DNA of 64,000 nucleotides from Candidatus Saccharimonadia bacterium (lineage in GTDB: Bacteria > Patescibacteriota > Saccharimonadia > Saccharimonadales > JALRHH01): contig JALRHH010000002.1 in the NCBI GenBank assembly GCA_023253175.1, positions 199-64,198 of the forward strand, given 5' to 3'. Numbering within the stretch: the first letter of the stretch is position 1; each line of letters begins with the position of its first letter. The notes beneath the pieces are model-generated. The model was not told the origin of the DNA. It did no database searches and saw only the letters and a list, made by a program, of their open reading frames with translations. The position numbers were made by a program, and so were the translations under genes. Of this stretch, positions 33,125 to 50,739 are shown in pieces.

Positions 33125-34470
33125 AAAAACCACGTGGGTCCCCGACACAGAGTGCGGCAGCGTGTGCTGTCACTCTTTGCAATTGAATGCAGTGCCGGGG
33201 ACCCGTCTTACGATCCGTTATGTCTGTATACACAGACGATTCATCTCCCGAAGGAAATGAACACGGATCTGGTCAGCAGTTCCCGGGTCCCAGGGGGCAC
33301 GGGGGGCTGTCGGTGTGGGTCGTGTCGTCGCCACCGTGAGTGGTGTCCGAAGGACCTTCAGCCGGACCAGCGCCGCCGTCACCGGGGGAACCCACGCCGG
33401 ACTGACCGTTGTCGTCAGGAGTCCTGACGGGGTCGTCGTCCTTGGGCGGAGTACCACTGGTGCCGCCGGTGGGGCCCTGCGGGTGGTTCTTGACCGGGTC
33501 CTTGTAGGGACTGCCGTTGCCACCGCTGCCGCCGGGGTCGTTCTGACCCTTGGGCTTGAGGCAGCCGGTCGGGCTGTCGACGGTACCGGGCGGGCACTTC
33601 TCCGGCGGCGGAGGCGTGCAGTTGTGCTTGCAGCCACCGCTCGGGGTGTCACCGGGTCGATCCGGCTTGGGAGGCAGGAACTGCGGGTTGACGCAGCCAC
33701 CACGAACGAGAGCCACGCGGAGCTCGATCTTGGCGGCGTCCTTGGACGATGCCTTCTCGACCTCCTTGCAGTCGTCGGGGTTGATGAGCACCCAGCCGAG
33801 GTCGCCCTTGGCGTTGCTGCGGGTGCCCACCTGCTTGACCTCGCCGTCGGAGTAGGCGGTGTTGCCCTCCCACTTCGACTTGACGAGCATCTGGAACCCG
33901 ACCCAGTTGGTGGGATCGAGCGCCTGCTCCTTGGTCACGCCCGCCGCGTCGATGCTGTGCTGCAGCACCTCCTGGGCGGCCGAGTCGTCGGTCGCGAGGA
34001 ACTCCGTCAGGTCCTTGGCAGTCGTCGCCGACGCGCCAAAGTTGCCGGTGCCCTCCTCGGTCGCCTCCTTCAGAGACAGATCGAAGTTGGCCTCGCCGAC
34101 GACGAACTCCTTCTTCTTGAACCCCTGCTTCAGCAAGAGGTTCTCGACGGCGGCGTCCGGGTTCTCGCACATCTGCGAGACGAGGACCACCGTGGAGTCG
34201 TCGTTGGCGGCAGCCCCAGCGCTCCTGTTGTCGAAGATGACGCTGGAACCCCAGATCGCGGCGATCACGACGACGAGAGCGACGACGAGCACCAGACGCT
34301 TTCTGGACTTGAGGTACTGCATGACCTTCGCGCGCCGACCGGTAACCGGGGGCATGGAAGCGGTGTCATGACTGGTCATGATTTTCTCCTTCCTGGGAGA
34401 AATGTAGAGTTACGCACAGAGTAGCGCGCAGCTGTGTAATCTCCCATTCAGGGACAGCACGCTGATGACA
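33125..34470. other. compositionally foreign high-GC block
   Basis: Hand count: 33421-33480 has 44/60 G+C, against 21/60 for 34801-34860. The ORF track shows long ORFs in most frames here, reflecting stop-codon depletion. Bounded by inverted repeats 33136-33148/33192-33204 and 34449-34460/34490-34501. Confidence 0.8.
33273..34379 (-). CDS. membrane-anchored protein with a Pro/Gly/Cys-rich C-terminus and high-GC3 (actinobacterial-style) codon usage
   Basis: RBS ggaaggagaaaatcATG and an N-terminal TM helix LVLVVALVVVIAAIWGSSVIF. Third codon positions are almost all G/C. Chosen over the overlapping frames because of the RBS, the TM helix and the non-repetitive composition. Confidence 0.65.
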   Translation of the reverse strand: MTSHDTASMPPVTGRRAKVMQYLKSRKRLVLVVALVVVIAAIWGSSVIFDNRSAGAAANDDSTVVLVSQMCENPDAAVENLLLKQGFKKKEFVVGEANFDLSLKEATEEGTGNFGASATTAKDLTEFLATDDSAAQEVLQHSIDAAGVTKEQALDPTNWVGFQMLVKSKWEGNTAYSDGEVKQVGTRSNAKGDLGWVLINPDDCKEVEKASSKDAAKIELRVALVRGGCVNPQFLPPKPDRPGDTPSGGCKHNCTPPPPEKCPPGTVDSPTGCLKPKGQNDPGGSGGNGSPYKDPVKNHPQGPTGGTSGTPPKDDDPVRTPDDNGQSGVGSPGDGGAGPAEGPSDTTHGGDDTTHTDSPPCPLGPGNC

Positions 34471-34933: not shown

Positions 34934-37123
34934 CTACGCTTGAGCTGGCTCGTCGACCTTGAGTTTATCTTTTGCGAAGCTAAATCCAAAGGTACTTCCC
35001 TTGCCGACTTTACTTTCGAATATTAGTGCGCCCCCCTGGGCGACAATAACTTTCTTGGCCATAAAGAGTCCAAGACCCGTTCCATCCGGACGAGCCTTCT
35101 GCGCATTCTTAGCCCGGAAGAACTTGTTGAACAGATTATGCTGCTCTGACTCTGGGACACCAATACCGTTGTCTTTGACCCTGAACTCTACTGATTTGTC
35201 ATTTTCCGTCAAAGAAATATCAATCTTGCCGCCTGCTGGCGTGTAGTAGATCGCATTATCAACAAAGTTCATAATCACCTGCCGGATCTTGGTCTCATCT
35301 AACATAAGCGTAGGGAAGCTATCCGGCTGATTATATGTCAATGTCATATTCTTACCAGCCGCAGTCTCCCGGAGTTGCTGCACCTCACCCGCAATCACAT
35401 CTGACAAGTTAGTAGGCAGTGCGTCGATCACAAATTTACCTGTCTTGAGGCGAGAAAGGTTCAAAAGATCAGCAATCAAAAACACCATTCGTTGGCTACT
35501 GATAAACGACTGTTCCAGCAGTTTCTTTTGCATATCGGTTATCGGACCAGCATCGCCTTCTAGTACCATCGATACATAACCTTTGACAGAGGTGAGCGGG
35601 GTACGTAGCTGGTGAGAAGCCATACTAATAAACTCATCCTTTGTCTCATCCATGGCCTTCAACTTATCATTGGCTTTCTTTAATCGCTTCGTCGCATCAT
35701 TTACTTTTTGCTGCAATGTAACGTTAAAGTTCTCGATCTCTTCGAACCTTAGGCCATTCTGGACTGCGATTACCAATTCACCTGAAATTATCTTAATTAC
35801 GTCGACGTCCTGCTTATTGTAAGGATTCCCTGACTTCTTGTATCCAAGAGCAAGGTAGCCGACGCCTTCTGTATCAATTCCATAATCAGTAACGAGCCTT
35901 GAAATTAATGCAATATCATACTTACGCATCAGCTTCCTAAGGGCGCTCTGCTCCTCTAAATCTTCAGCAACTAGAATTTTTTGACTTGAGTCTGCAATAG
36001 TATCTGCAACAATCATTAAGTCCTCAATGCTCAGCTGTCGGCTATCAACACCGAGCATACGAGGGCTGGAATACTCTGTACTCCTAAGGTAGAACAATAC
36101 TGATGTAGATTTAATATAACTATTGATAATTCCGGCACTGTCTCTAAGTAGCTTTTCTACGTCCACATTAGCGACTACAGCCTTGTTTATGTCGTTAAGA
36201 AACGTCTGCGCATCGTACGCATCACGATAAAACAACTTATCAGAAACCCTATTAAACGTACGCTTTACGGGACCGTAAGATACGGCCGCGAATATCACAA
36301 GTATGACATTCGTAAGCGTACGCCAGTTCTCGTTGCCGGATCCGTTAAACAGATACTTTGAGGCCTCAAATGATATAAGGGCATATATGGTTAAAATAAG
36401 ACCAAGCGTAAACACATAGGCCAATGATCGAACCACGACCAACCTGAGATCAAATAACCTGTGTTTAAACACGGCGTAGTACATTCCGCCGACAAAAGCC
36501 GCCATTGGCACAATACCTATATTGGTAAGCCCAAACCAGCCCGTTGCCACAGGAAGTATGAAAAGCATTAAAACCAGCAGAGGCAGAGAGTAGGCAAAAC
36601 TGCGGTAGATAGTCTTTAGTCTTGTTTTTTGGGCGCCCTTACTGCGTTTAATATTCTTCTTTAAGACCACAAATATTGCAGCAATCATTGACACTAAAAA
36701 TACAAAATACACAGGCAAACCGGCCCCAAATTCAACTGCATAGACATTGTCCTGGAGATGGACTCCCGCAGGCACAAGTGCGGTAAACGACATTAAGCCT
36801 ACCAGAAAAATAGGCACATAGAGTGCCTTGAATATTTTTCTGGCCCTTTCGTCCTGAACCAGGCTAATGGTGAAGTGAAGCAGGTTAACTGCAGTAAAAT
36901 AACTAAAGAAGAAGACAAAATAATTAGCCTTGAGCGCTGTCTCGGGAGAGCGGCCTATGTCATTGCTTATATAGTTAGCAATGATCCACACAGCAACAGA
37001 TGCAGCCAAAGCAGCGAAAGTAATGCTTGTAACTGACTTTGCCTTCTGTACCAAAACGGCTGCCGAAAGTACGATCAATGCGACAATAATTATAAGATCA
37101 ATTATTAGGTATACATCCAGCAT
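34934..37123 (-). CDS. sensor histidine kinase with a polytopic N-terminal membrane domain
   Basis: About 7-8 predicted TM helices in the first ~300 aa, then a cytoplasmic linker/sensor region. H-box MASHQLRTPLTSV; ATPase boxes VDNAIYYTP, DNGIGVP and GTGLGLFMAK. Confidence 0.9.
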   Translation of the reverse strand: MLDVYLIIDLIIIVALIVLSAAVLVQKAKSVTSITFAALAASVAVWIIANYISNDIGRSPETALKANYFVFFFSYFTAVNLLHFTISLVQDERARKIFKALYVPIFLVGLMSFTALVPAGVHLQDNVYAVEFGAGLPVYFVFLVSMIAAIFVVLKKNIKRSKGAQKTRLKTIYRSFAYSLPLLVLMLFILPVATGWFGLTNIGIVPMAAFVGGMYYAVFKHRLFDLRLVVVRSLAYVFTLGLILTIYALISFEASKYLFNGSGNENWRTLTNVILVIFAAVSYGPVKRTFNRVSDKLFYRDAYDAQTFLNDINKAVVANVDVEKLLRDSAGIINSYIKSTSVLFYLRSTEYSSPRMLGVDSRQLSIEDLMIVADTIADSSQKILVAEDLEEQSALRKLMRKYDIALISRLVTDYGIDTEGVGYLALGYKKSGNPYNKQDVDVIKIISGELVIAVQNGLRFEEIENFNVTLQQKVNDATKRLKKANDKLKAMDETKDEFISMASHQLRTPLTSVKGYVSMVLEGDAGPITDMQKKLLEQSFISSQRMVFLIADLLNLSRLKTGKFVIDALPTNLSDVIAGEVQQLRETAAGKNMTLTYNQPDSFPTLMLDETKIRQVIMNFVDNAIYYTPAGGKIDISLTENDKSVEFRVKDNGIGVPESEQHNLFNKFFRAKNAQKARPDGTGLGLFMAKKVIVAQGGALIFESKVGKGSTFGFSFAKDKLKVDEPAQA

Positions 37124-37174: not shown

Positions 37175-38104
37175 TTACACGCCCTTCCGACGATCTCTGT
37201 CGGCCTTTGTGAAGCTGGCGCTGGAATTAATACCAAGCTTTTCTCGAATCATCATAGTGCCAAGTCGACGATAAAATGCGGTGCGAGGCATCCTAATAAC
37301 TCCACTCTCAAGGGTCATCGAGTCCATAAAGCCAAAGCGTGGAGCCCAAATTGGATCTTTGCGATGATTCTTCACGTCCTTAGTCATGTGCAAAAATGCC
37401 TGAGACGAACCTAAGGCAGAGGCAACATCAACACCCTGAGATATTGATGGAAGTGGCGCATCCTCATCATTGGCAACCGCCTCTAAGGTGCGCATATCAG
37501 CATATGAAGGCAGACTTGGTAAGCACCGGCTTATGTCCAGCTTAAGATCCTTAACCTCATCAATTGGCATATCCTTCGGGATTCCCATCATAGTCCTGAA
37601 AGAATGTCGTCCCTCTGGATGAAAAGAAGTAATCTGCGCAGCAAACCCGACGTTCATAATGAAAACATCAGGAATACTACGACGGCGTGCTTCATCGGAA
37701 ACCATTGTTCCAAGATCAAGGTGCGTTAACTCGGTCTCGTCAAAAACGAGCGTAGAACGGCTCATGAACTCCTGGACGTTATCTTCGGTGATACCATCGG
37801 TATAGACACGAACTTTTGCCTCAGGGTTGATCTCATGGACCATATCACGAAATACTTCGGCCTTATTTTGTCCAAGAGTTTTATTAGTTGCACCAGGAAC
37901 ACGGTTAATGTTTTCTGCCTCAAAAACCTCTGGGTCAGCGATATCAAATGACTGGACGCCCATTCGTGCAAGCTTTTGACCAAGCTGGAAACCATCGCCA
38001 CCAACACCTGCAATAGCTACGGATGCATTCATAATAGCTTGTTGTTCCGCCTCATTCCAAAAACCATAGTTACGGGCAAATTCGGGACTATTAACAGAAT
38101 TCAT
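37175..38104 (-). CDS. ThiF/MoeB/E1-like adenylyltransferase family protein
   Basis: Rossmann motif VAIAGVGGDGFQLGQKLARMG followed by DIADPEVFEAENINR (compare the D.D..E.SNLNRQ block of the ThiF family). 309 aa. Confidence 0.7.
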   Translation of the reverse strand: MNSVNSPEFARNYGFWNEAEQQAIMNASVAIAGVGGDGFQLGQKLARMGVQSFDIADPEVFEAENINRVPGATNKTLGQNKAEVFRDMVHEINPEAKVRVYTDGITEDNVQEFMSRSTLVFDETELTHLDLGTMVSDEARRRSIPDVFIMNVGFAAQITSFHPEGRHSFRTMMGIPKDMPIDEVKDLKLDISRCLPSLPSYADMRTLEAVANDEDAPLPSISQGVDVASALGSSQAFLHMTKDVKNHRKDPIWAPRFGFMDSMTLESGVIRMPRTAFYRRLGTMMIREKLGINSSASFTKADRDRRKGV

Positions 38105-38133
38105 AATTACCTACCTTTAATTTAACCGAGTTG

Positions 38134-38922
38134 TTACGCGGCAGTCCTATTAATGTCGGTATTTAGGCTAAAGTGTTCTATATTCTGTTCTGTTGCACGA
38201 ATCCGGTTAACTGCTTGATCACTATCAAAACCAAGACCCTTAGCCATAGCAGGCACATCTACTGAGATACCAAGATTGTCAGCTGCATACTCTGGCACAA
38301 ACTTAGGATCAGCAATGCGCTCTAGCGGCACACCAAGACCACTCTTCAAGTAACGCTCGACAGTCGGCTCAACAACACCAAATGTCGGAACAAGGCCATG
38401 AGCAGTAATATGAGCTACTACTTTCTTGAATAATGGAGCGCTCATCTGCGCCTGAACCCTTGGGTTTTCATGGCGTGCAATGTACCGAGAGACCTCTGTT
38501 GAACCTATAGGAAGTGGGTTATCAGTAAATTTTTCTGGGAAAAATTCTTCAATAGGAAGTGGTCGTGGATCCATCGCGCGCTTCTCGATAGTACGAATAC
38601 TACCAACAACCCTCGCAAGACCCTCGCCTTCCTTTGACCTCTCAAGAAGAGCCCAGTGAGTAGAGCGAACATCGTCATTATCAACCTCAGTACCATCCTC
38701 ACGCACATCTGAATGAGGAATCATCTGAGTCTGGTATGCATACACGTTCGCACGAAGCTTAAGGTATCCGTCATGTTCTTGTTCGCGGCCAGGCAAAATC
38801 TGGTCACCAACAGCGATCATACCAACAGCAAAGTTTGTCTCTGGGCGCTGGTTAATAAACCAGGTACTTTCTACCGTTGGGATAACCATCTCGTTCGAAA
38901 TTGTGAGGTCGATCTTTGACAT
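38134..38922 (-). CDS. LuxI/FeeM-like GNAT-fold N-acyltransferase (autoinducer-synthase-like)
   Basis: By-eye alignment to LasI/LuxI blocks: YLKLRANVY (cf. KLRAQVF), an acidic cluster EDGTEVDNDD, VVGSIRTI (cf. GCWRIL), STEVSRYIA (cf. WELSRFAI), and FGVVEPTVERYLKSGLGV (cf. TVTTVGVEKMMIRAGLDV). Confidence 0.55.
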   Translation of the reverse strand: MSKIDLTISNEMVIPTVESTWFINQRPETNFAVGMIAVGDQILPGREQEHDGYLKLRANVYAYQTQMIPHSDVREDGTEVDNDDVRSTHWALLERSKEGEGLARVVGSIRTIEKRAMDPRPLPIEEFFPEKFTDNPLPIGSTEVSRYIARHENPRVQAQMSAPLFKKVVAHITAHGLVPTFGVVEPTVERYLKSGLGVPLERIADPKFVPEYAADNLGISVDVPAMAKGLGFDSDQAVNRIRATEQNIEHFSLNTDINRTAA

Positions 38923-39016: not shown

Positions 39017-39044
39017 ATTATACGCTTTTTTGCATATTTGTCAA
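39017..39044 (-). promoter_or_regulatory. consensus sigma70-type promoter for the acyltransferase-ThiF-kinase operon
   Basis: Minus strand TTGACA-(16 nt)-TATAAT, with -35 at 39039-39044 and -10 at 39017-39022. Confidence 0.55.
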
Positions 39045-39270
39045 TATACTTTTGTAAATACATAATTGCTTATGATAATAAAAAGACACCGGACATAGCA
39101 AAGCGCCATATCTAGTGTCTAATTGTGCTGCAAAAGTACTATCTTAGTTGTACTCCTTATACTCCTCCAAGTCAACAAAGATTTGTTAGTCTTCTATTTT
39201 AAAGTTATATAGAACTAATTGATACAAGTTTAATATATAATCCTTTTACGGATAGCTAAATGGATGTAAC

Positions 39271-39792
39271 ATGAAAACGAAGAATCTTCTTGGCGATAGT
39301 AAAAGCAAAACTTTTGGTAACAAAACCAATGAGGCGACCAGCAGGCAAACGGTAGTGGCGGTCATATTCGACCCTTCATCAGATACATATCTTTGTCAAT
39401 ACTGGGAAGAATACAGTGGACTTACGTGTCTATTATCGGGAGGTATAGAAGATGATGAAGACAGCTATGAGGCTCTAAGAAGAGAAATTCGTGAAGAAAC
39501 TGGCTACATCGACTTCGATATTATAGGCATCCTTGGAGGCACCCTAAACACTTATTACGTGAAAGGCTCGACAGGAGAAAGCCTTGTCAAACACATAACC
39601 CCCTACCTTGTTCGGTTAAACTCATCTCGACAAATAGAAACTACTAAAGAAGAAGATGAAAGATTTGAGAACCTTTTCCTAGACCACAAGAATATTAATG
39701 AATTGATGACAAAATATGAAAAAAATAGCGGATCGACTCTTGCTGATCATAAAGAAATTTTATCAAGGGCGGTTAGGTATTTAAACCAATAA
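39271..39792 (+). CDS. NUDIX hydrolase
   Basis: Nudix box GGIEDDEDSYEALRREIREETG. Confidence 0.8.
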   Translation: MKTKNLLGDSKSKTFGNKTNEATSRQTVVAVIFDPSSDTYLCQYWEEYSGLTCLLSGGIEDDEDSYEALRREIREETGYIDFDIIGILGGTLNTYYVKGSTGESLVKHITPYLVRLNSSRQIETTKEEDERFENLFLDHKNINELMTKYEKNSGSTLADHKEILSRAVRYLNQ

Positions 39793-39847: not shown

Positions 39848-42808
39848 GTGGAAAAGCCAGTACTAGATCAAGCAATAGATATGCCTCCAGCAAATATTAT
39901 CATTCTTGGCTTGCCGGGTTCAGGCAAGACTACCCTTGGCGAGCTAATGGCAGAAGGCAATGGCGAAATGGAGTACATTTCAGTTGGCCAAATCTCACGC
40001 GAGCTACCTGATGACGATGAGCGCCGTCATTATGTAGATAATCTCTATAAGGAACACAATCGTCCGGTAGGAAGTCCGGATTTTTTTGTTGAACTCGTCA
40101 GACCAGCAATCAAAAAAGCGCATAGTGAGAATAAAGGCATAATCTTAGATGGCATTCCAAAAAAACCAGAAGAAATAGAACCACTTAATCGACTCCTCGA
40201 AGAAGAGGGCATCAAAATTGATGGCATCGTAATTTGTGAAGTTTCACCGTTTACAGCCCTACAGCGGGTTATAGACAGAGGGCCCCGTGAAGGAGGGCTT
40301 GATACCGTAGACACGGCCATAAACCGAGGCGCAGCTTACTGGGAGGCTATTGAGGGATTTCGGGGCAGACTCGGTGGGTTTCTTGGGCTTAAAATTGTGA
40401 ATGTTGATACGGAGCATTTAGACCCACAAACGGCAGTACATAAAGCGAATGAGATTTTGGAATCGATACGCCTTAAAGAGGCATCTGCCAATGTAATAGA
40501 TATAAAAACAAAAGAAGTAACGCTAGAAAAAGCTGAAATTGATCAAGTTCTGCAGTCAATCGAGAAACGTAACGACAAAGAGACTATGTTGTTGCTTTCT
40601 AGGCTATTTGTAGATACAAAATATGTACCCTTAATCGAGAAAATCCTTGATTCTAACCCGGACATAACACCATCTGACGTAAGTCATGAATTAGTTGCAG
40701 CAATGCCGGAGTTTAAATATCTACCCCTATCTGCAGGACGTTATGCTGATATGCTGATCAGAAATGTCTATGAACCCCTAAGAAACCTAGCTAATACCAT
40801 ACCCAAAGAAGCCAGGCTGCGAGCTAGTGGCAGACTGGATTCAGAAGTGTTAGGCGTCGTCATCAGAGAGGCTCTTGTTACCAAGGAGATTATTCGATGC
40901 TATCAAGGAAAAGCTAATAAAGTAAAAAGCTCTGAAGAGTTTGTAAATGAGGAATTCGAGATAAGAAAAGCAGACCTCGAGTACACAGAGTCTTTCCTTA
41001 GAAAAGCCAATGCACTACCAGACGGTATGACATTAAGAACACTCATGATGATACAACCACGATATTGGAACATCTTCACCTCCAGTGCATTACTTGGGTC
41101 AGTTGACGGCAACTATCAAAAGCATATCAATAGCCTTCCTGGCTCTCATCACTCACTATCAGTGCCTGTTGATATGCCGAGGCGAATGATAGCCAACTCC
41201 ATGGGAGAGTATCAACCATTCATTGAAGCCGTATCAACAAGCGAGAGAAGCGGCTTTGACACAAGCCTAGGATTCCTACACGTGATAGGTATGGACGAGA
41301 ATGGCAAAGCGTTTCAAGTTGAATGGCCTTTGTTGATGCAGGATTCGAGACTGGCGATGCATCCAAATGCATTATTAAGAGACATGCTCGCGCGAGGACA
41401 TGGGATATATTTTAATCATGATTTCTGGCATAACATTGTACCCGTATATGCTGAAAGCTTTAACTTATATCATCCTCACGCGCCTATTGCATATGGTGGA
41501 CTAATGCCAGAATATTTAGATTTCGGTAAAAGTCTACGATCGGAGAAAGAGGAATACGAGATTTTTGTTGCCATGACGCACGCACAGGCACAGCGATACA
41601 GAATGGAGCACGACCCTGAATACAAAAGATCACAAATAGAAGCAGCGTTGACAATCATTAATGATATACCCCACTTGAAGCAACAGCTTATTCAAAGTGA
41701 CGGCGAGAAATTTGCAGAAGATGTTTCAAAGTATTTCATGACCGTTACCATCGGCAGATTGTTGAATATCATCCCGCCTGATTCAAACGATCTTCTTCCC
41801 ATTGTAGATAAGCTTGAGAAAGACCCTTACCTTTCTCAAGACATATCAAAGTCAGACTTCTTAAAGCTTCTCTTTACTCAACGAATGGCCCTTGCAACAA
41901 AAGATAGTAGGCTAAGTTTTATGCAGGATATTCTGTCCGAGAGCAGCATAGATGAAGCCATAAAAGAAAGAATCATCGAAAGTCTTCTGCCCACAATCAA
42001 TAATATTGAACGTAAGCCAGCTCTTTCTCATGAGCTTATTGAGGAGCTCTGCCAACACAAAGCCATCGTCTCTATCGCGCTACAGTACATTGAACCCGCT
42101 AATCCCCATGCAGAATCAGGTTCAGTCGCACTATACAAATCCCTGGAAGATATGGGTCTCAAAGCACTTCTAGACAATGACACTCAACACATTAACCTAC
42201 GAGGCCTTTCGCTACTACGATGGCTAGCAATAGTCGCGCCACAAAGAGATCCCTTAAAAGGTCATATGGAAAAAGTACACGGCAAGAACGGGATTATTTT
42301 TGGAAACGAAATAGTTCCGCCTACAGAAGTTATCAGACGACACACTGAAACAATAATTCAAAATCAAGACGTATATGAATACAGAAAATGGGCCCGAGAA
42401 TTTGGTCAGAGTTTGGCGGCTAGTATCTACGATCTACTCCTGCACGACGGTCAAGCCAATAACAAAGACCAACGTACCGCCTTGTACATTCTCTCCAACT
42501 ACAATGGAGTAGACCCCGCTCAGCGACAGATCATAAACAATGGCATTAGAAAGCTAGATTTAATGTTAGAGGACTTAGTAAATGCAAAATACTCTCTTGA
42601 TATTTCTGATCTTGAAGAAATATCTGAACTCGCTGATGTGTGTAATGAGTATAGCCCCGAGCTCAGTGAGACAATCGCAGACAACCTAAAGCGCTACTCA
42701 TTCCTACAGCAGCAAGAAGTTGCCTATCAGACATTCGCAAGCACAAACTATGCTACGTCAAAAGCCGCCATAGAGAATTCAACCATGGATCTACTAGATA
42801 ATACATAA
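39848..42808 (+). CDS. 986-aa protein: N-terminal adenylate-kinase-like P-loop NMP kinase domain fused to a ~780-aa domain of unknown function
   Basis: IIILGLPGSGKTTLGELMA (P-loop), ISVGQISR, GIILDGIPKKPEEIEPL and RVIDRGPREGG parallel the adenylate kinase blocks GxPGxGKGT / ISTGDxLR / ILDGFPRT / R..R.DD. The remainder is largely helical with His-rich patches (FNHDFWHN, YHPHAP). GTG start at 39848; an alternative ATG lies at 39881. Confidence 0.6.
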   Translation: MEKPVLDQAIDMPPANIIILGLPGSGKTTLGELMAEGNGEMEYISVGQISRELPDDDERRHYVDNLYKEHNRPVGSPDFFVELVRPAIKKAHSENKGIILDGIPKKPEEIEPLNRLLEEEGIKIDGIVICEVSPFTALQRVIDRGPREGGLDTVDTAINRGAAYWEAIEGFRGRLGGFLGLKIVNVDTEHLDPQTAVHKANEILESIRLKEASANVIDIKTKEVTLEKAEIDQVLQSIEKRNDKETMLLLSRLFVDTKYVPLIEKILDSNPDITPSDVSHELVAAMPEFKYLPLSAGRYADMLIRNVYEPLRNLANTIPKEARLRASGRLDSEVLGVVIREALVTKEIIRCYQGKANKVKSSEEFVNEEFEIRKADLEYTESFLRKANALPDGMTLRTLMMIQPRYWNIFTSSALLGSVDGNYQKHINSLPGSHHSLSVPVDMPRRMIANSMGEYQPFIEAVSTSERSGFDTSLGFLHVIGMDENGKAFQVEWPLLMQDSRLAMHPNALLRDMLARGHGIYFNHDFWHNIVPVYAESFNLYHPHAPIAYGGLMPEYLDFGKSLRSEKEEYEIFVAMTHAQAQRYRMEHDPEYKRSQIEAALTIINDIPHLKQQLIQSDGEKFAEDVSKYFMTVTIGRLLNIIPPDSNDLLPIVDKLEKDPYLSQDISKSDFLKLLFTQRMALATKDSRLSFMQDILSESSIDEAIKERIIESLLPTINNIERKPALSHELIEELCQHKAIVSIALQYIEPANPHAESGSVALYKSLEDMGLKALLDNDTQHINLRGLSLLRWLAIVAPQRDPLKGHMEKVHGKNGIIFGNEIVPPTEVIRRHTETIIQNQDVYEYRKWAREFGQSLAASIYDLLLHDGQANNKDQRTALYILSNYNGVDPAQRQIINNGIRKLDLMLEDLVNAKYSLDISDLEEISELADVCNEYSPELSETIADNLKRYSFLQQQEVAYQTFASTNYATSKAAIENSTMDLLDNT

Positions 42809-42894: not shown

Positions 42895-43287
42895 ATGCTA
42901 AAGATTGCGGTCATAGAAGACGACAAGCCGATCCAGATGCTCTACAAGACAAAGTTAGAGGTTGATGGTTTTGCCGTGGTGACAGCAGACAATGGCAAGC
43001 AAGGGCTAGAACGGCTCGAAGCTGAACTGCCTGATTTGGCCCTAGTTGACCTGCGCATGCCAGAAATGGGCGGAGATGAAATGCTGTCTCGCCTGCGTGA
43101 AACAGAGTGGGGGGCGAGCATTCGCGTGATCATTCTGACCAATATTAGCCGTGACGAAGCGCCCAGTGCGCTTCGTTTCTTAAATGTAGACCGCTACCTC
43201 GTCAAGGCGCATCACACCCCAAAACAGGTTGTTGACGTCGTAAATGAAGTACTGAACATTAAAAAGCATTCTAATCAAGGACGCTGA
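42895..43287 (+). CDS. single-domain (CheY-like) response regulator 1
   Basis: Receiver residues are intact: EDD, phospho-acceptor D in LALVDLRMP, T in ILTN, K in LVKA. No output domain. Confidence 0.85.
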   Translation: MLKIAVIEDDKPIQMLYKTKLEVDGFAVVTADNGKQGLERLEAELPDLALVDLRMPEMGGDEMLSRLRETEWGASIRVIILTNISRDEAPSALRFLNVDRYLVKAHHTPKQVVDVVNEVLNIKKHSNQGR

Positions 43288-43331
43288 CGAAGTTGCTTGC
43301 CGAAAGTCAGTAATTCACTTACGATAAGACT

Positions 43332-43700
43332 ATGCCTAAAATTGCAATTATCGAAGACGACCAAGCTATTAGCCAGATGTACCGCATGAAGTTCGAAGCC
43401 GAGGGCTTTGAGGTTGAAACTGCGGCTAATGGAAAGCTCGGACTTGAACTCGCCGATAAAATGCGACCAGATATTATCCTTTTGGACCTTATGATGCCAG
43501 AAATGACCGGTGATGAGATGTTAGTTAAGCTCCGTGAAGCCGACTGGGGCAAGAACATCCGCGTGATTATCCTGACAAATATGGGCGAACAAGAAGCCCC
43601 ACCAGTCATCAAAACACTTGGCGTAAAGCGCTTCATCATCAAAGCAGAGATGACCCCGCGGCAAGTTGCCGAAATGGTAAAGAACGAGCTTGCAGCGTAG
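43332..43700 (+). CDS. single-domain (CheY-like) response regulator 2
   Basis: Paralogue of RR1 with EDD, ILLDLMMP, ILTN and IIKA. Confidence 0.85.
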   Translation: MPKIAIIEDDQAISQMYRMKFEAEGFEVETAANGKLGLELADKMRPDIILLDLMMPEMTGDEMLVKLREADWGKNIRVIILTNMGEQEAPPVIKTLGVKRFIIKAEMTPRQVAEMVKNELAA

Positions 43701-43703
43701 CCT

Positions 43704-44084
43704 ATGGCGCATATTGTTTTAGTCGAAGACGACGCACTGCTGTCGGAGATGTATCAAGCCGCACTCATCAGCGAAGGCTTTCAGTGCTCTGTTGCGCTTG
43801 ACGGTACAACCGGCCTTGACCTGATCACCCACACCCAGCCAGACTTGGTTCTACTGGATCTGATGCTTCCACAAATGAGTGGCGACGAGGTACTTGCGAA
43901 AATGCGACAGCTAGATCGCACCAAGCATACTCGTGTCATAATTATGACCAATATCAGCGAAAGCGAAGCCCCTGAACAGCTTAAACACCTTCAGTTTGAG
44001 CGTTACATCGTAAAAGCCAACACGTCACTACTCGAAGTTATCGAAATTATTAAAAAAATGTTCGTATCCCAACCTGTTAAGTAG
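43704..44084 (+). CDS. single-domain (CheY-like) response regulator 3
   Basis: Paralogue of RR1/RR2 with EDD, VLLDLMLP, IMTN and IVKA. Starts 3 nt after the RR2 stop. Confidence 0.85.
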   Translation: MAHIVLVEDDALLSEMYQAALISEGFQCSVALDGTTGLDLITHTQPDLVLLDLMLPQMSGDEVLAKMRQLDRTKHTRVIIMTNISESEAPEQLKHLQFERYIVKANTSLLEVIEIIKKMFVSQPVK

Positions 44085-44119: not shown

Positions 44120-45415
44120 ATGAATATAGCTATTGTTGGCTTTGATACTGAAGGCAAAGCGACCTACGAGTTTTTATCCGCACAAGGGCATGAGCTTACA
44201 ATTTGCGACCAGAAGACTGATCTTGTCTTGCCGGAAAATACGACTTCGCAGCTGGGAGAAGGATACCTTGATGACCTTGATCGATTCGATCGTATCGTTC
44301 GTACGGCTGGGCTCCACCCTGCGAAGATTCTGGAAAAAAACCCGGACGTATTGGATAAAATCACCAGCCATATAAATCTTTTTTTTGAAAACACCCCGAC
44401 CAAAAATATTATTGGCATTACAGGTACGAAGGGTAAAGGCACGACAAGCACGCTCGTCGCGAAGATACTTGAGGCCAGTGGAAAAGATGTGAAGCTCGGC
44501 GGAAACATAGGGGTTCCACCGCTAACATTTCTAGACCGACTAACTGATCAATCATGGGTAGTGTTAGAACTCTCCAGCTTTCAGCTGATAGACCTTCGTG
44601 AATCACCGCATATTGCGGCAGTACTTATGATTGTTCCAGAACACCTAAACTGGCACGAAGATATGGAAGAATACATTGCCGCAAAGCAGCAACTCTTCAT
44701 TCATCAGTCCCCTGATGACATCGCAATTTACTTTGATGGCAACGAAGACTCATTAAGTGTTGCCGACGCCTCAGAGGGCCAACTGATACCATACTTTTCT
44801 GAACCCGGGGCGGTCATTCAGGATAATGTTATTCAAATAGACGACAATACTATATGCCACATGGATGAATTAAAGCTACTCGGTGCACATAATTTACAAA
44901 ATGTGTGCGCAGCTGTGACGACAACCTGGCAGGTTACTCATGACACCAAGGCAATGAAGCAAGTACTCACCTCCTTTACCGGGCTTCCCCACCGTCTGGA
45001 ATTTGTACGAGAGCTCGATGGCATCAAATACTATGATGATTCGTTTGGTACCACACCTGAAACCGCAATAGTTGCGATTGAATCATTTGAGCAGCCAAAA
45101 GTTGTTATCCTCGGTGGGTCCGACAAGGGGGCATCGTTTGAAGCATTGGCGGATAGTGTGATCAAACATGCAGTTCGCGCGGTTATTTACATAGGAGCAA
45201 CCGGACCAGCCATTGCTGACATCCTTCGAAAAAAGGGATATACCAACCTCCACGAAGGTGGCAGTACAATGGACTCAATCGTTACGGCCGCGCGCAACGT
45301 AGCCCAGCCTGGGGACGTCATATTATTATCGACAGGCTGCGCAAGCTTTGGGCTGTTCAACGATTACAAAGACCGTGGCAATCAGTTTATCGAAGCTGTC
45401 AAACAGCTAAACTAG
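44120..45415 (+). CDS. murD: UDP-N-acetylmuramoylalanine--D-glutamate ligase
   Basis: Mur ligase P-loop GITGTKGKGTT, plus LPHRLE and SFG(T/L) blocks. 431 aa. Confidence 0.88.
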   Translation: MNIAIVGFDTEGKATYEFLSAQGHELTICDQKTDLVLPENTTSQLGEGYLDDLDRFDRIVRTAGLHPAKILEKNPDVLDKITSHINLFFENTPTKNIIGITGTKGKGTTSTLVAKILEASGKDVKLGGNIGVPPLTFLDRLTDQSWVVLELSSFQLIDLRESPHIAAVLMIVPEHLNWHEDMEEYIAAKQQLFIHQSPDDIAIYFDGNEDSLSVADASEGQLIPYFSEPGAVIQDNVIQIDDNTICHMDELKLLGAHNLQNVCAAVTTTWQVTHDTKAMKQVLTSFTGLPHRLEFVRELDGIKYYDDSFGTTPETAIVAIESFEQPKVVILGGSDKGASFEALADSVIKHAVRAVIYIGATGPAIADILRKKGYTNLHEGGSTMDSIVTAARNVAQPGDVILLSTGCASFGLFNDYKDRGNQFIEAVKQLN

Positions 45416-46052
45416 CCAGTACGCGGTTAAGCTGCCTAATAATTGCAGGCTCAGGCTGCAGAACGATTGCTCTTCCCTTTGCGAGCTTTTGAATATCTTG
45501 TTCAATCCAGTGATAATGCGTGCATCCAAGCACGATCACATCAGCACCAGCATCAAGCACTTCGATAATTCGGCCGTCGACTTTTTTCCTATCCACGTTA
45601 TTTGCCTGGATCATTGCCGCCCAGTCACTGCAGTCAGGCTCTAATACCGTGGTATCTTTTGCATAAGTATCCTTGAGCCAGCCATACCGCTTGCTCTTAA
45701 GCGTGGCAGGCGTTGCACAGACAGCAACTATACCAGTTTTAGTTTGCTGTGCCGCTGGCTTAACCATTGGTTCGATACCTACCAATGGCACACTTATCTG
45801 CTCCCTAAGCTGCCTGATGATTGTAGTCGTCACGGTATTGCATGCGATCACGATAACCTCACACCCCTGCTCTATCATTTCCTGTAAGATTGGAGTAACG
45901 AGGTCTAGTAGCTGCTCAGGCGTCTTATTGCCATAGGGTAGATGAGCGCTATCATCTCTAAAGATAACTTCACTATCTGGGAAAGTCTCTCTTATCGCCC
46001 GCGCAACAGACTCACCACCCCTGCCAGAATCAAACACACCAATAGTATGCAT
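45399..46052 (-). CDS. murI: glutamate racemase (short form, 217 aa)
   Basis: FDSGRGG, IACNT and LGCTHY catalytic-Cys blocks. Convergent 17-nt overlap with murD. Confidence 0.8.
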   Translation of the reverse strand: MHTIGVFDSGRGGESVARAIRETFPDSEVIFRDDSAHLPYGNKTPEQLLDLVTPILQEMIEQGCEVIVIACNTVTTTIIRQLREQISVPLVGIEPMVKPAAQQTKTGIVAVCATPATLKSKRYGWLKDTYAKDTTVLEPDCSDWAAMIQANNVDRKKVDGRIIEVLDAGADVIVLGCTHYHWIEQDIQKLAKGRAIVLQPEPAIIRQLNRVLASLAV

Positions 46053-46864
46053 TATGAATCCTGGATAGTATTACGAGCGGCGCGGAGTACGTTATCGAAT
46101 AAAGCACAGACGGTTAGTGGACCAACGCCGCCTTTTGCTGGGGTGATCGTAAGGTCATCTCTGTCATAAAGCTCCGGTGCAACATCGCCGACAGTCTTGC
46201 CGTCTTCACTGGCCACACCCGCATCAACCACGACGGCACCTTCCTTGATCATATCCGGATACAGGATTGCAGGGCTGCCAGTTGCAGTCACAATTACGTC
46301 AGCATCCTGAGTTTTTTCACCAAGATTTTCGGTATTTCTATCGGCAACCGTTACGTCAACTTCTGAACTTTTCAATATTTTTTCAAGCGGTGCGCCGACA
46401 AGCTTACCACGCCCAATAAGGAGTACTTTTTTGCCGCGAAGATCTACATTATACCCAGCCAGCAGCCACATGATTGCCATCGGTGTTGCGGGTTCAAACA
46501 CTGCATCCTTACCAAGCGCATCAACATCTTTTTCCGGAGCAACCAGATTAACAATAGCGTCTGTTTCTGATGGATCAGCTAAAGGAAGCTGTACGATAAT
46601 GCCATGCACGGAGTCATCCTCGTTAAGCCGCTGGATCACTTGTGGTGCCTCTTCTTGCTTTGGGTGATGGGACTCAACCTCTATATCAATATCTGCGCCG
46701 TATCGCTTTTTAAGACGTACATAGGTATCAATTACGGGGTCTTGCTTGACTTGTACTATTGCGAGCTTTGGCGTAATGTCATGAGCCTGAATGAGAGCAC
46801 GAGCCTGCTGCGCCTGACGAAGCTTAATAAAGTCAGCTAATTCTTTGCCATTGAGTAGTTTCAT
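46052..46864 (-). CDS. folD: bifunctional methylenetetrahydrofolate dehydrogenase/cyclohydrolase
   Basis: MKLLNGKELA start at 46864, GRGKLVGAPL and PAKGGVGPLTV. Confidence 0.88.
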   Translation of the reverse strand: MKLLNGKELADFIKLRQAQQARALIQAHDITPKLAIVQVKQDPVIDTYVRLKKRYGADIDIEVESHHPKQEEAPQVIQRLNEDDSVHGIIVQLPLADPSETDAIVNLVAPEKDVDALGKDAVFEPATPMAIMWLLAGYNVDLRGKKVLLIGRGKLVGAPLEKILKSSEVDVTVADRNTENLGEKTQDADVIVTATGSPAILYPDMIKEGAVVVDAGVASEDGKTVGDVAPELYDRDDLTITPAKGGVGPLTVCALFDNVLRAARNTIQDS

Positions 46865-46944
46865 ATCTGGGATATTATACGTCAAAGGGGCTTGCAAAAA
46901 CAGAGGTAATTTGTTACAATCGTCTGGTCCTAACATAAAAGTTT

Positions 46945-47021
46945 GGGCCTGTAGCTCAGTTGGTTAGAGCAGCGGACTCTTAATCCGCGTGTCGTGGGTT
47001 CGAATCCCACCAGGCCCTCCA
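46945..47021 (+). tRNA. tRNA-Lys (anticodon CUU), CCA encoded; integration target of the island
   Basis: GGGCCTGTAGCTCAGTTGGTTAGAGCAGCGGACTCTTAATCCGCGTGTCGTGGGTTCGAATCCCACCAGGCCCTCCA. Anticodon loop is CTCTTAA. Confidence 0.9.
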
Positions 47022-48602: not shown

Positions 48603-48745
48603 TTAAACTCCACTTAAAAGGACGGCCCTGGTTCACCCAATAAGATAGAAATCTACTGGCAAGGCCGCCCTTAAAAGGCAGTATGTATGATTCTCTATCT
48701 ATATGGGTGAACTCGTTAATTATACGCTATTTATATATTCTTAAG

Positions 48746-49261
48746 TTAGTTCTGAACGTCATTGCCGAACAGTAACTCTGCTTCGGATACTTGCCTCTTC
48801 TGATGTCGTTGTATTAAACCTAATTTAGATTGGTAAGGTTTCTTGGTATTCTTTGTAATAGATTTCCTATGCTCCTCAATCTTTATATCTACCTCCCTTA
48901 GAGCAAGATGGTTGCTTTTCATTAAACTGGTTATGATTAATGTAAGCTTACTGATTTCCACCCTATAATGGTGTTTTGCTGGAATTGAAGCCAGTTTATG
49001 GCTAACAACCCCATAGTTAATCAATATATTTAAGGCAGTCCTCTGATTATTTCTGGAAAGCCCCGTCTCTATAAACATTTCATCTGCAGTCTTATAGAAA
49101 TATCCATCTTTTCTACTGGTTTTATCTTGCCAGTAGAGCAGCTGGTTGAACATAATCGCAGCATCTCGAGATTTAAAACATATTGCAAGCGCGCCTGAGT
49201 ATGCTATTGGCCTTTGCTTAATTAAGCTATATACAACTTGCTGATGTTTGCTCAGACTCAC
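48746..49261 (-). CDS. island-encoded putative winged-helix DNA-binding/replication-organiser-like protein
   Basis: The block YFYKTADEMFIETGLSRNNQRTALNILINYGVV resembles DnaD/phage replication-organiser N-terminal wHTH proteins. Start taken at the GTG at 49261, preceded by AAGGAG; the track ORF starts at 49303. Confidence 0.45.
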   Translation of the reverse strand: MSLSKHQQVVYSLIKQRPIAYSGALAICFKSRDAAIMFNQLLYWQDKTSRKDGYFYKTADEMFIETGLSRNNQRTALNILINYGVVSHKLASIPAKHHYRVEISKLTLIITSLMKSNHLALREVDIKIEEHRKSITKNTKKPYQSKLGLIQRHQKRQVSEAELLFGNDVQN

Positions 49262-49266
49262 TCCAG

Positions 49267-49413: not shown

Positions 49414-49427
49414 ATCTTAAGTAATCT

Positions 49428-49471
49428 AAAAGCCCTCATTCTTATGACTGGTATAGAACGAGGGCTTTTTT
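49428..49471. terminator. hairpin flanked by A/T runs separating island cargo genes from the recombination module
   Basis: aaaagccctc-(22 nt)-gagggctttttt. Could act as a terminator in either direction. Confidence 0.4.
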
Positions 49472-50737: not shown

Positions 50738-50739
50738 TT

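What the first reader, a model, noticed from the sequence alone, without database searches (positions are those of the whole stretch)
37175..38922. LuxI/N-acyl-amino-acid-synthase-like enzyme paired with a ThiF/E1-like adenylyltransferase
The 262-aa protein aligns by eye with the conserved blocks of acyl-homoserine-lactone synthases and the related FeeM/N-acyl amino acid synthases. The blocks are R in YLKLRANVY, an acidic cluster EDGTEVDNDD, R in VVGSIRTI, E-x-S-R in STEVSRYIA, and the C-terminal VVEPTVERYLKSGLGV segment. The Trp usually found after the first block is absent. Such enzymes are essentially unknown in CPR bacteria. The next gene encodes a ThiF-family protein (GVGGDG Rossmann motif, DIADPEVFEAENINR) that would adenylate a carboxylate on a protein, peptide or small acid. 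Together they suggest activation plus N-acylation chemistry, giving a signal, a modified peptide or a lipid-like amide. A microcin-C-like scheme (a ThiF-like MccB plus a GNAT) came to mind, but I found no convincing short precursor ORF ending in Asn nearby.
Basis: partly seen in the sequence, partly recalled or inferred. Interest (0 to 1): 0.7.

Follow-up and report, generated by a model that had tools for sequence, protein, structure and literature searches.

The report
Acyl-amino-acid signal operon with sensor kinase
A tiny epibiotic bacterium (Saccharibacteria) carries one operon with two enzymes predicted to build a cyclised fatty-acyl amino acid and a membrane sensor kinase that may detect it, and the same enzyme pair occurs in Leucobacter, a genus that includes a cultured host of such epibionts.

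Summary
The 262-aa protein has the LuxI/FeeM acyltransferase fold and motifs. The 309-aa protein is a ThiF-family adenylating enzyme.

The pairing is a known kind. An N-acyl amino acid synthase plus a ThiF-like ATP-dependent cyclase makes acyl-oxazolones in Pseudoalteromonas (OxzAB) and Mycobacterium tuberculosis (TyzACB, TrzAS). The window ThiF scores best against the ThiF domains of that group, not against MoeB or ThiF proper.

Two features differ:
- **No flavin desaturase.** None lies in the 64-kb window or in about 85 related loci.
- **A kinase in the operon.** In every Saccharibacteria locus the pair is followed by a polytopic histidine kinase and faces one to three stand-alone receiver genes. 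A scan using only the kinase's sensor motif retrieved 24 further loci, all with ThiF directly upstream.

The same two-gene pair, without the kinase, occurs in Microbacteriaceae (Leucobacter, Agreia and others).

My best reading is a lipid-like signal synthase and receptor module, a new variant of a known pathway. The chemistry and the ligand–kinase link are inferred, not shown. A 2020 survey had already listed the LuxI-like/kinase synteny in CPR as putative AHL quorum sensing.

The parts
39017..39044 (-). Promoter-like site, TTGACA-16-TATAAT (12/12 match), about 95 nt upstream of the acyltransferase ATG; a hairpin lies just upstream at 39092-39112
   Evidence: the only 12/12 match in 34.5-44.3 kb; sequence. 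This is a consensus match only, and function is not shown.
38134..38922 (-). LuxI/FeeM-fold N-acyl amino acid synthase-like acyltransferase (262 aa), first gene of the operon
37175..38104 (-). ThiF-family adenylating enzyme (309 aa) of the PRK08223/OxzB-type subgroup, predicted ATP-dependent cyclase; no Zn-Cys cluster and no N-terminal peptide-clamp domain
34934..37123 (-). Polytopic sensor histidine kinase (729 aa): at least 6 TM helices in residues 1-290, a middle region that is weakly GAF-like in homologues, then HisKA and HATPase_c. It starts 51 nt after ThiF with no terminator-like site between them.
42895..43287 (+). Stand-alone receiver (CheY-like) protein 1, 130 aa
43332..43700 (+). 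Stand-alone receiver protein 2, 122 aa. It is the most conserved of the three across loci (56-85% identity).
43704..44084 (+). Stand-alone receiver protein 3, 126 aa

Best explanation
The finding is the first two genes of a three-gene operon: acyltransferase, ThiF-like enzyme, then a polytopic histidine kinase. One to three stand-alone receiver genes sit on the other side of the promoter region. In this lineage a NUDIX gene and a 986-aa kinase-like gene have been inserted between the operon and the receivers.

Proposed mechanism:
1. The LuxI/FeeM-fold enzyme transfers a fatty acyl group from acyl-CoA or acyl-ACP to the alpha-amino group of a free amino acid, giving an N-acyl amino acid (inferred from fold, motifs and homology).
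2. The ThiF-like enzyme adenylates that product's free carboxylate with ATP. The amide oxygen or a side-chain nucleophile then attacks and closes a ring. By analogy with OxzB, TyzB and TrzS the ring is a 5(4H)-oxazolone. Because no flavin desaturase is present, it would stay saturated, and therefore labile and electrophilic (inferred from subfamily membership and conserved ATP-site residues).
3. The hydrophobic product, or its N-acyl amino acid precursor or hydrolysis product, is sensed in the membrane by the co-transcribed kinase. The kinase phosphorylates the CheY-like receivers (inferred from strictly conserved synteny only).

Microbacteriaceae carry the same enzyme pair without this kinase. 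The molecule may therefore be common to epibiont and host lineages.
For: **Enzyme 1.** The AF2 model has pLDDT 94.8. The best PDB folds are AHL synthases and FeeM. R57, D81, D84, R110 and E143-x-S145-R146 are invariant and E79 is nearly so, and the E-x-S-R block aligns to EsaI and TofI. Of 51 homologues, 37 hit PF00765 or PF13444 and 19 hit PF21926 FeeM. The only NCBIfam hit is TIGR03694.

**Enzyme 2.** PF00899 scores 1e-28. The NCBIfam order is PRK08223 (146 bits), PRK14851 (95), PRK14852 (72), then ThiF proper (71). PRK14851 and PRK07877 (the Rv1355c/TrzS family) are ThiF-FDO fusions, because a stand-alone Acg-type FDO matches their C-terminal halves. The closest solved sequence is TcdA, a cyclodehydratase. 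The ATP-site residues are invariant, including D122. I take D122 to be the counterpart of TrzS D217, whose D217A variant abolishes cyclisation; that equivalence was not tested by alignment.

**Coupling of the two enzymes.** They are adjacent in all loci that are long enough, about 85 in total. Their genes overlap in Actinobacteria. In one Acidimicrobiales contig they are fused in a single 562-aa frame. Distant actinobacterial relatives of both genes sit in NAS-FDO-ThiF clusters.

**Precedent.** OxzAB, TyzACB and TrzAS are biochemically characterised. TrzS lacking desaturase activity still releases the saturated cyclised intermediate.

**Kinase link.** There is a consensus promoter upstream of the acyltransferase gene and no terminator-like site at either gene junction, with gaps of 29 and 51 nt. 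The kinase follows ThiF in every Saccharibacteria locus that extends past ThiF. A metagenome scan seeded only with a sensor-domain motif returned 24 loci, 24 of 24 with ThiF directly upstream. The sensor is almost entirely membrane-embedded.
Against: - No product, substrate or ligand has been observed.
- The window proteins themselves fall below the curated cut-offs of every specific family: PF13444 E=0.04; TIGR03694 22.8 bits against 111.95; PRK08223 146 against 266, aligned only over residues 8-183.
- I could not obtain the TyzB, OxzB or TrzS sequences, so placement in their clade rests on NCBIfam models and on FDO-linked proxy clusters.
- The defining third activity of the known pathway, the flavin desaturase, is absent nearby. 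It could still be encoded elsewhere in the roughly 1-Mb genome.
- Saturated 5(4H)-oxazolones hydrolyse and racemise readily (my own knowledge), which makes them odd as end products.
- From general knowledge, Saccharibacteria lack fatty-acid synthesis, so the acyl donor is unclear.
- Synteny with a kinase does not show that the kinase binds the product. More distant members of the same sensor family occur without the enzymes.
Confidence: 0.55

Rival explanations
1. It is a genuine LuxI-type acyl-homoserine-lactone synthase. The enzyme uses SAM plus acyl-CoA or acyl-ACP to make an AHL that the nearby kinase senses, as Bernard et al. 2020 proposed for CPR. On this reading the ThiF gene is an unrelated passenger.
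For: The top structural matches are CoA-dependent AHL synthases: BjaI, RpaI and MesI. LuxI-type conserved residues are present. PF00765 hits 37 of 51 homologues, and JGI annotates homologues as AHL synthetase. The LuxI-like/kinase synteny in CPR has been published.
Against: ThiF lies between the synthase and the kinase in every Saccharibacteria locus and is fused to the synthase in L059, so it is not a passenger. An AHL has no free carboxylate for a ThiF enzyme to adenylate. The conserved LuxI Trp is replaced by Ile or Leu. The same fold and the same top hits were reported for TyzA, which is an N-acyl amino acid synthase. No LuxR-type gene is in the window.
Confidence: 0.1
2. The two enzymes do make a cyclised or activated N-acyl amino acid, but it is not a signal for the kinase. 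It could be a membrane lipid, an antibiotic-like compound, or an activated acyl-aminoacyl donor that modifies an amine on the envelope or on the host surface. On this reading the kinase merely regulates the operon or is a conserved neighbour.
For: The known oxazolones have no demonstrated signalling role and stay largely cell-associated. A saturated azlactone is a good acylating agent (my own knowledge). Microbacteriaceae keep the pair without this kinase. Distant members of the sensor family occur without the enzymes.
Against: Within the close sensor subfamily, co-location is 24 of 24 in an independent scan. All three genes look co-transcribed. The receivers have no DNA-binding domain, so simple transcriptional autoregulation of the operon is not the obvious output. 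In Microbacteriaceae the neighbours are again signalling proteins: a polytopic GGDEF-EAL protein and a weakly TetR-like regulator.
Confidence: 0.25
3. The ThiF-like protein is an E1-like or RiPP-type enzyme (MoeB/ThiF, MccB or PaaA). It adenylates the C-terminus of a small protein or peptide, and the GNAT then acylates that substrate.
For: It has the ThiF fold, with ThiF, PaaA, MoeB and MccB among the top structural hits. GNAT and ThiF occur together in microcin C clusters (my own knowledge).
Against: The Rossmann fold starts at about residue 25, so there is no N-terminal peptide-clamp or RRE domain of the kind that precedes the fold in PaaA (query 21-120 aligns to PaaA 127-228). There are no CxxC zinc motifs. 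No ThiS, MoaD or other small conserved gene is in the operon, and gaps of 29 and 51 nt leave no room for one. No ThiS/MoaD Pfam family appears anywhere in the window. The MoeB, ThiF and TcdA equivalog models score far below their cut-offs.
Confidence: 0.05

Closest known systems
Acyl-oxazolone biosynthesis: OxzA/OxzB (Pseudoalteromonas rubra), TyzA/TyzB/TyzC and TrzA/TrzS (Mycobacterium tuberculosis); related NasY clusters for stieleriacines, thalassotalic acids and kyonggic acids
   Same: A LuxI/FeeM-fold N-acyl amino acid synthase is encoded next to, upstream of, or fused with a ThiF-family ATP-dependent cyclase. The ThiF here scores best against the same NCBIfam group (PRK08223, PRK14851). 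ATP-site residues are conserved. Homologues of both genes occur in FDO-containing clusters in Actinobacteria.
   Different: No nitroreductase-superfamily flavin desaturase is fused or adjacent, so a conjugated tyrazolone-type chromophore is not expected. A polytopic histidine kinase sits in the operon, with receivers facing it; the papers read here do not mention a kinase next to the known clusters. The host is a roughly 1-Mb epibiont. The amino-acid and acyl specificities are unknown.
LuxI-type AHL synthases (LuxI, LasI, EsaI, TofI, BjaI)
   Same: The fold and the R / E-x-D-x-x-D / R / E-x-S-R residue pattern are shared.
   Different: The protein is below the Pfam threshold. It lacks the conserved Trp and has no LuxR partner. 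It is obligatorily paired with an enzyme that needs a free carboxylate.
Synthase-plus-membrane-kinase quorum-sensing pairs (LuxM/LuxN, CqsA/CqsS, LqsA/LqsS)
   Same: A small-molecule synthase gene is adjacent to a polytopic sensor histidine kinase that feeds receiver proteins. This is a resemblance in logic, drawn from my own knowledge of those systems.
   Different: The sensor domain has no detectable Pfam relationship to LuxN or CqsS. The synthase chemistry is different, and no ligand has been shown.
TcdA (tRNA ct6A cyclodehydratase)
   Same: It is the closest solved protein by sequence (E 1e-12 to 1e-15). It is a ThiF-family enzyme that uses ATP to cyclise an N-acylated amino acid moiety.
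   Different: TcdA acts on tRNA. Only the Rossmann half aligns (residues 15-126). The NCBIfam TcdA model scores 52 bits against a cut-off of 304.

Membership tests
LuxI-type AHL synthase (PF00765) | GNAT-like alpha/beta/alpha fold of AHL synthases | tested here: met
   Foldseek top hits are BjaI, RpaI, LasI, MesI and EsaI, E 1e-8 to 1e-5, with a model of pLDDT 94.8.
LuxI-type AHL synthase (PF00765) | Conserved catalytic and SAM-site residues: R, E-x-D-x-x-D, R, E-x-S-R | tested here: met
   R57, D81, D84, R110, E143, S145 and R146 are invariant and E79 is nearly invariant. E-x-S-R aligns with EsaI and TofI. The numbering of LuxI residues is from my memory.
LuxI-type AHL synthase (PF00765) | Score above the Pfam gathering threshold | tested here: not met
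   The window protein has no PF00765 hit at E<=1. Of 51 homologues, 37 hit at E<=0.01, best 4.4e-13.
LuxI-type AHL synthase (PF00765) | Conserved Trp (LuxI W35) after the first Arg block | tested here: not met
   The position ten residues after R57 is Ile in the window protein and mostly Ile or Leu in the homologues shown.
LuxI-type AHL synthase (PF00765) | Cognate LuxR-type receptor gene | tested here: not met
   No LuxR-type family is among the called genes across the 64-kb window.
LuxI-type AHL synthase (PF00765) | Produces an acyl-homoserine lactone from SAM | not testable with these tools
   This needs biosensor or LC-MS assays.
FeeM / N-acyl amino acid synthase (PF21926, TIGR03694) | Profile match above the curated cut-off | tested here: not met
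   TIGR03694 scores 22.8 bits against a cut-off of 111.95. PF21926 hits 19 of 51 homologues but not the window protein. FeeM (2g0b) is a top-10 structural hit.
FeeM / N-acyl amino acid synthase (PF21926, TIGR03694) | N-acylates a free amino acid | not testable with these tools
   This is inferred from the obligatory pairing with a carboxylate-activating enzyme.
Oxazolone synthetase system (OxzAB / TyzACB / TrzAS) | N-acyltransferase gene adjacent to a ThiF-like cyclase gene | tested here: met
   The two genes are adjacent in every locus long enough to show both. They are fused in L059.
Oxazolone synthetase system (OxzAB / TyzACB / TrzAS) | ThiF domain belongs to the TyzB/OxzB/TrzS cluster of the superfamily | tested here: inconclusive
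   The best NCBIfam models are PRK08223, then PRK14851 (a ThiF-FDO fusion), ahead of ThiF and MoeB. All are below cut-off, and the reference sequences for TyzB, OxzB and TrzS were not available here. It is 35-40% identical over its full length to ThiFs in FDO-containing clusters.
Oxazolone synthetase system (OxzAB / TyzACB / TrzAS) | Intact adenylation site, including the Asp equivalent to TrzS D217 | tested here: met
   GxGGDG, D57, N65/N67/R68, K81 and D122 are invariant in 51 sequences. The role of D217 is described. The D122-D217 equivalence is my assignment and was not aligned.
Oxazolone synthetase system (OxzAB / TyzACB / TrzAS) | Flavin-dependent oxidase (nitroreductase superfamily) fused or adjacent | tested here: not met
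   tblastn with two Acg-type FDOs finds nothing in the window or in the Saccharibacteria, Microbacteriaceae and Acidimicrobiales loci held at that point. No nitroreductase Pfam family appears across the window. The rest of the genome was not searchable.
MoeB/ThiF sulfur-carrier or E1-type activating enzymes | Ubiquitin-like partner (ThiS, MoaD or Ubl) and a Zn-binding Cys cluster | tested here: not met
   No such gene is in the window. There are no CxxC pairs. The equivalog models score 38-71 bits against cut-offs of 152-647.
MccB/PaaA RiPP-modifying ThiF enzymes | N-terminal peptide-binding (clamp or RRE) domain and a precursor peptide gene | tested here: not met
   The Rossmann fold starts at about residue 25. 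Query residues 21-120 align to PaaA 127-228. The intergenic gaps of 29 and 51 nt leave no room for a precursor gene.
Membrane-kinase quorum-sensing receptors (LuxN, CqsS type) | Sensor domain homologous to a known autoinducer-binding TM domain | tested here: not met
   The 330-aa sensor region has no Pfam hit at E<=10. It defines its own family of 3059 clusters at E<=1e-3.

The most novel reading that the evidence does not exclude
The operon is a complete, previously unrecognised chemical communication circuit of Saccharibacteria. An FDO-less acyltransferase/ThiF pair makes a short-lived cyclised N-acyl amino acid. This could be a saturated azlactone. If the acceptor is homoserine, ornithine or a similar amino acid, it could be a lactone or lactam made by an ATP-dependent route that needs no SAM. 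A dedicated polytopic kinase reads that molecule. Microbacteriaceae such as Leucobacter, a genus containing a cultured Saccharibacteria host, make the same class of molecule with the horizontally shared enzyme pair. The epibiont would then use the kinase to detect hosts as well as kin.
Probability: 0.2. Interest if true: 0.85.

Novelty: new variant of a known kind. Interest (0 to 1): 0.6.

Why it matters
How Saccharibacteria and other CPR epibionts find, recognise and regulate their association with actinobacterial hosts is largely unknown, and none of the Saccharibacteria papers read here describes a small-molecule signal made by them. This operon offers a concrete, compact hypothesis to test: two enzymes, one kinase and one to three receivers.

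The two enzymes can be expressed heterologously with methods already worked out for TyzAB and TrzAS. The same enzyme pair occurs in Leucobacter, a genus with a cultured Saccharibacteria partner, so cross-talk can be tested in co-culture.

It would also extend acyl-oxazolone-type chemistry to a desaturase-free form. It corrects the earlier in-silico reading of these CPR genes as AHL synthases. The physiological role of oxazolones is still open even in M. tuberculosis, and a receptor-linked variant could help answer that question.

Tried and rejected
- **AFDB50 fold search.** I wanted it to pull TyzB (P95234), but the library was unavailable.
- **Third homologue search.** I seeded it with an FDO-linked ThiF hoping to retrieve M. 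tuberculosis TyzB. It returned only MAG relatives, so no direct comparison with TyzB, OxzB or TrzS was possible.
- **Direction of transfer.** NJ trees of ThiF and the acyltransferase, with 100 bootstraps, separate the two-gene clade from the FDO-linked outgroup at 100%. Deep nodes have support of 50 or less, so the direction of transfer between Saccharibacteria and Microbacteriaceae is unresolved. The first attempt timed out. The GC content of the pair equals that of its flanks in both phyla, which gives no direction either.
- **Shared sensor in Microbacteriaceae.** I tested whether the polytopic N-terminus of the GGDEF-EAL neighbour is homologous to the kinase sensor. No hit was found.
- **TetR-like neighbour.** Pfam support is only E=0.08 in one of three orthologues.
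- **Literature.** A search for AclA (PDB 9egb, a top ThiF-fold hit) found nothing relevant. The Saccharibacteria genetics paper (PMC10633639) mentions none of these genes.
- **Rejected readings.** Microcin-C or RiPP, E1/ubiquitin-like, MoeB/ThiF orthologue and plain AHL synthase; the reasons are under rival explanations.
Full report
**1. Observation**

They are 38134-38922 (262 aa) and 37175-38104 (309 aa), separated by 29 nt. All quoted motifs are present.

Both are real conserved genes. The ThiF protein has an identical copy on 17 public contigs of up to 950 kb. There are 59 clusters of homologues for the 262-aa protein and more than 441 for the ThiF protein, many sharing contigs. Record titles place the close relatives in Candidatus Saccharibacteria / Saccharimonadales.

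**2. The 262-aa protein**

On its own it barely touches any profile. PF13444 scores E=0.04 and TIGR03694 scores 5e-5, far below its cut-off. No PDB sequence matches at all.

The family signal is much clearer:
- Of 51 aligned homologues, 37 hit PF00765 (Autoinducer synthase), 37 hit PF13444 and 19 hit PF21926 (FeeM).
- The alignment has invariant R57, D81, D84, R110, E143, S145 and R146, with E79 conserved in at least 90%. This is the R / E-x-D-x-x-D / R / E-x-S-R pattern of LuxI-type enzymes (numbering recalled from memory).
- A profile of the family aligns the E-x-S-R block to EsaI and TofI.
- The AF2 model (pLDDT 94.8) finds BjaI, RpaI, LasI, MesI, FeeM and EsaI as its best PDB folds, ahead of generic GNATs.

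Grigg et al. reported the same two nearest structures, FeeM and BjaI, for TyzA, which is a proven N-acyl amino acid synthase.

**3. The 309-aa protein**

It matches PF00899 ThiF at 1e-28. In NCBIfam it scores best against PRK08223 (146 bits), then PRK14851 (95) and PRK14852 (72). ThiF proper scores 71, and MoeB, TcdA and E1 models score lower. All are below their cut-offs.

I could work out what PRK14851 and PRK07877 (the 'Rv1355c family', that is TrzS) are. A stand-alone Acg-type flavin oxidase from a related actinobacterial cluster matches their C-terminal halves. They are therefore ThiF-FDO fusions, which is the OxzB/TrzS architecture.

Other properties:
- The ATP-site residues are invariant in 51 sequences: GxGGDG, D57, N65/N67/R68, K81 and D122.
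- There is no Zn-Cys cluster and no N-terminal peptide-clamp domain. The Rossmann fold starts at about residue 25, whereas the same region aligns to PaaA residues 127-228.
- By sequence, the closest solved protein is TcdA, an ATP-dependent cyclodehydratase.
- By fold, the top hits are ThiF, PaaA, AclA, MoeB and MccB.

**4. Known precedent**

A literature search for this pairing found the acyl-oxazolone pathway:
- OxzA/OxzB of Pseudoalteromonas rubra.
- TyzA/TyzB/TyzC and TrzA/TrzS of M. tuberculosis.
- The NasY clusters of Planctomycetota and Proteobacteria.

In these systems the acyltransferase makes an N-acyl aromatic amino acid from acyl-CoA. The ThiF-like enzyme cyclises it with ATP. A nitroreductase-superfamily flavin oxidase (FDO) desaturates it. 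When the TrzS desaturase is disabled, the saturated cyclised intermediate still forms.

**5. Surroundings and comparative genomics**

Across about 25 Saccharibacteria species from GTDB genomes and four further contigs, the order is always the same. One to three stand-alone receiver genes lie on the opposite strand. They are followed by the acyltransferase, ThiF and a 705-765-aa kinase, in every locus that extends that far.

The kinase has at least six predicted TM helices in its first 290 residues, a middle region that is weakly GAF-like in homologues, then HisKA and HATPase_c.

In the window, a 12/12 consensus promoter lies upstream of the acyltransferase gene. No terminator-like site lies at either gene junction.

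The receivers (42895-44084) are separated from the operon by a NUDIX gene and a 986-aa P-loop-kinase-like gene. These two were found only in contigs of this same organism.

As an independent test of coupling, I scanned metagenomes with a motif taken only from the kinase's sensor domain. All 24 confirmed loci have ThiF immediately upstream, and the acyltransferase too wherever the contig reaches that far.

The sensor domain has no Pfam match. It belongs to a large family of kinases, 3059 clusters at E<=1e-3, but only 37 are close relatives at E<=1e-30. One distant paralogue has no detectable acyltransferase or ThiF upstream.

**6. Distribution outside Saccharibacteria**

The same two genes occur in about 30 Microbacteriaceae species and in Acidimicrobiales. 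The Microbacteriaceae genera are Leucobacter, Agreia, Cryobacterium, Rathayibacter and Microbacterium. In these genomes the pair usually overlaps by a few bases and has no kinase. The ThiF proteins are 44-56% identical to the window's.

In one Acidimicrobiales contig the two domains lie in a single 562-aa reading frame.

In Leucobacter, Cryobacterium and Agreia the neighbours are a polytopic GGDEF-EAL protein and a divergent protein of about 285 aa with a weak TetR-like N-terminus.

Leucobacter aridicollis is the cultured host of Saccharibacteria strain TM7i. Trees separate this two-gene clade cleanly from the outgroup but cannot resolve who gave the pair to whom. GC content is fully ameliorated on both sides.

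**7. The missing desaturase**

More distant actinobacterial relatives do have an Acg-type FDO in the cluster. These are a Solirubrobacterales genome and a Mycobacteriales MAG, and their ThiFs are 36-40% identical to the window's. Their gene orders are NAS-FDO-ThiF, and FDO-ThiF-NAS with the NAS fused to a cNMP-binding domain. A Frankiales relative has ThiF followed by the NAS-cNMP fusion, with no FDO detected.

tblastn with these FDOs finds nothing in the window or in the Saccharibacteria, Microbacteriaceae and Acidimicrobiales loci held at that point. The Pfam families of all called genes across the 64 kb include no nitroreductase. The rest of the genome could not be searched.

**8. Interpretation**

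The enzymatic half is best explained as a desaturase-free relative of the oxazolone pathway, with N-acylation followed by ATP-driven activation and cyclisation of the product's carboxylate. I put this at about 0.65.

The strictly conserved, co-transcribed polytopic kinase and the receivers suggest that the product is a signal with its own receptor. I put this at about 0.4-0.5. It rests on synteny only.

The combined statement is given 0.55 as the leading explanation. The rivals are scored in their own section:
- A non-signalling lipid or acyl donor (0.25).
- A true AHL synthase (0.1).
- An E1-like or RiPP-type enzyme (0.05).

**9. Novelty**

The enzyme pairing is a known kind (papers from 2020 to 2025). 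The LuxI-like/kinase synteny in CPR was listed in 2020 as putative AHL quorum sensing. That list included a Saccharibacteria genome where the synthase is gene 598 and the kinase is gene 600. The intervening gene 599, presumably ThiF, went unremarked.

Three things appear to be new:
- Recognising that the intervening gene makes this an acyltransferase/ThiF (oxazolone-type) system.
- The system lacks the desaturase and is hard-wired to a specific kinase subfamily.
- The enzyme pair is shared with Microbacteriaceae, the family of a known host genus.

I classify it as a new variant of a known kind, with interest 0.6.

Noticed in passing
window 39271-39792 (+) and 39848-42808 (+): A NUDIX hydrolase and a 986-aa protein lie between the acyltransferase operon and its receiver genes. 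The large protein has an adenylate-kinase-like P-loop N-terminus followed by about 800 residues with no family hit. In other Saccharibacteria the receivers abut the operon, so this looks like a lineage-specific insertion.
   Followed up: partly
window 46980-48602 (-) and about 48700-52300: A large serine recombinase (Resolvase, Recombinase and Zn_ribbon_recom domains) sits next to a low-GC stretch (0.36-0.40, against about 0.46 elsewhere) of small genes with no family hits. This is probably an integrated mobile element or prophage remnant.
   Followed up: no
window 33273-34379 (-): A 368-aa protein has one N-terminal TM helix and a Pro/Gly/Thr-rich C-terminus, in a locally GC-rich patch (0.53) that throws up long spurious antisense ORFs. 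Weak homologues (23-35% identity) recur downstream of the kinase in several other Saccharibacteria loci, next to a CLIPPER-domain protein.
   Followed up: partly
L059 595-2265 (uncultured Acidimicrobiales, CAZTDG010000250.1): The acyltransferase (residues 38-251) and ThiF (266-554) domains lie in one 562-aa stop-to-stop frame, a natural fusion. There is only one instance, on a 3.5-kb MAG contig, so an assembly artefact is not excluded.
   Followed up: partly
L023 3687-7054, L031 3819-7014, L049 3192-7016 (Leucobacter, Cryobacterium, Agreia): Upstream of the actinobacterial pair is a conserved GGDEF-EAL protein with a 5-7-TM N-terminus. Next to it is a divergently transcribed protein of about 285 aa with a weak TetR-like N-terminus (PF00440 E=0.08 in one orthologue). 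This is a different signalling context around the same enzymes.
   Followed up: partly
L065 6876-8024 and L061 8881-9990: In the Mycobacteriales and Frankiales clusters the FeeM-like acyltransferase is fused to a cyclic-nucleotide-binding domain. That fusion suggests cNMP control of N-acyl amino acid synthesis.
   Followed up: no
L064 4720-5253 (Saccharimonadales DASTHW010000005.1): A basal Saccharibacteria version of the module has an extra 177-aa predicted membrane protein directly upstream of the acyltransferase gene. It might be an exporter or accessory protein. It is not an FDO.
   Followed up: partly
L062 12182-14407; L093 1944-4918: A second paralogue of the same kinase family lies 1 kb downstream of the module in the complete genome CP011211.1. 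A distant paralogue elsewhere (27% identity in the sensor) overlaps a 263-aa protein that I read as having a GNAT-like motif (HPQFRRPRGGAW). It has no acyltransferase or ThiF profile hit.
   Followed up: partly
window ThiF residue C194 (SRCLP), codon at about 37523-37525: A Cys is near-invariant (at least 90%) in the Saccharibacteria/Microbacteriaceae ThiF clade. It is replaced by Trp in the FDO-linked clade and in L064-type proteins, and by Val in Acidimicrobiales. Whether it has a catalytic role, such as forming a thioester, is unknown.
   Followed up: no
window 44120-46936 and L064 451-3757, L007 5831-6655: The module sits at a conserved chromosomal position next to Mur ligase, Asp/Glu racemase and FolD (THF_DHG_CYH) genes in distant Saccharibacteria. 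This points to long vertical inheritance within the class.
   Followed up: partly
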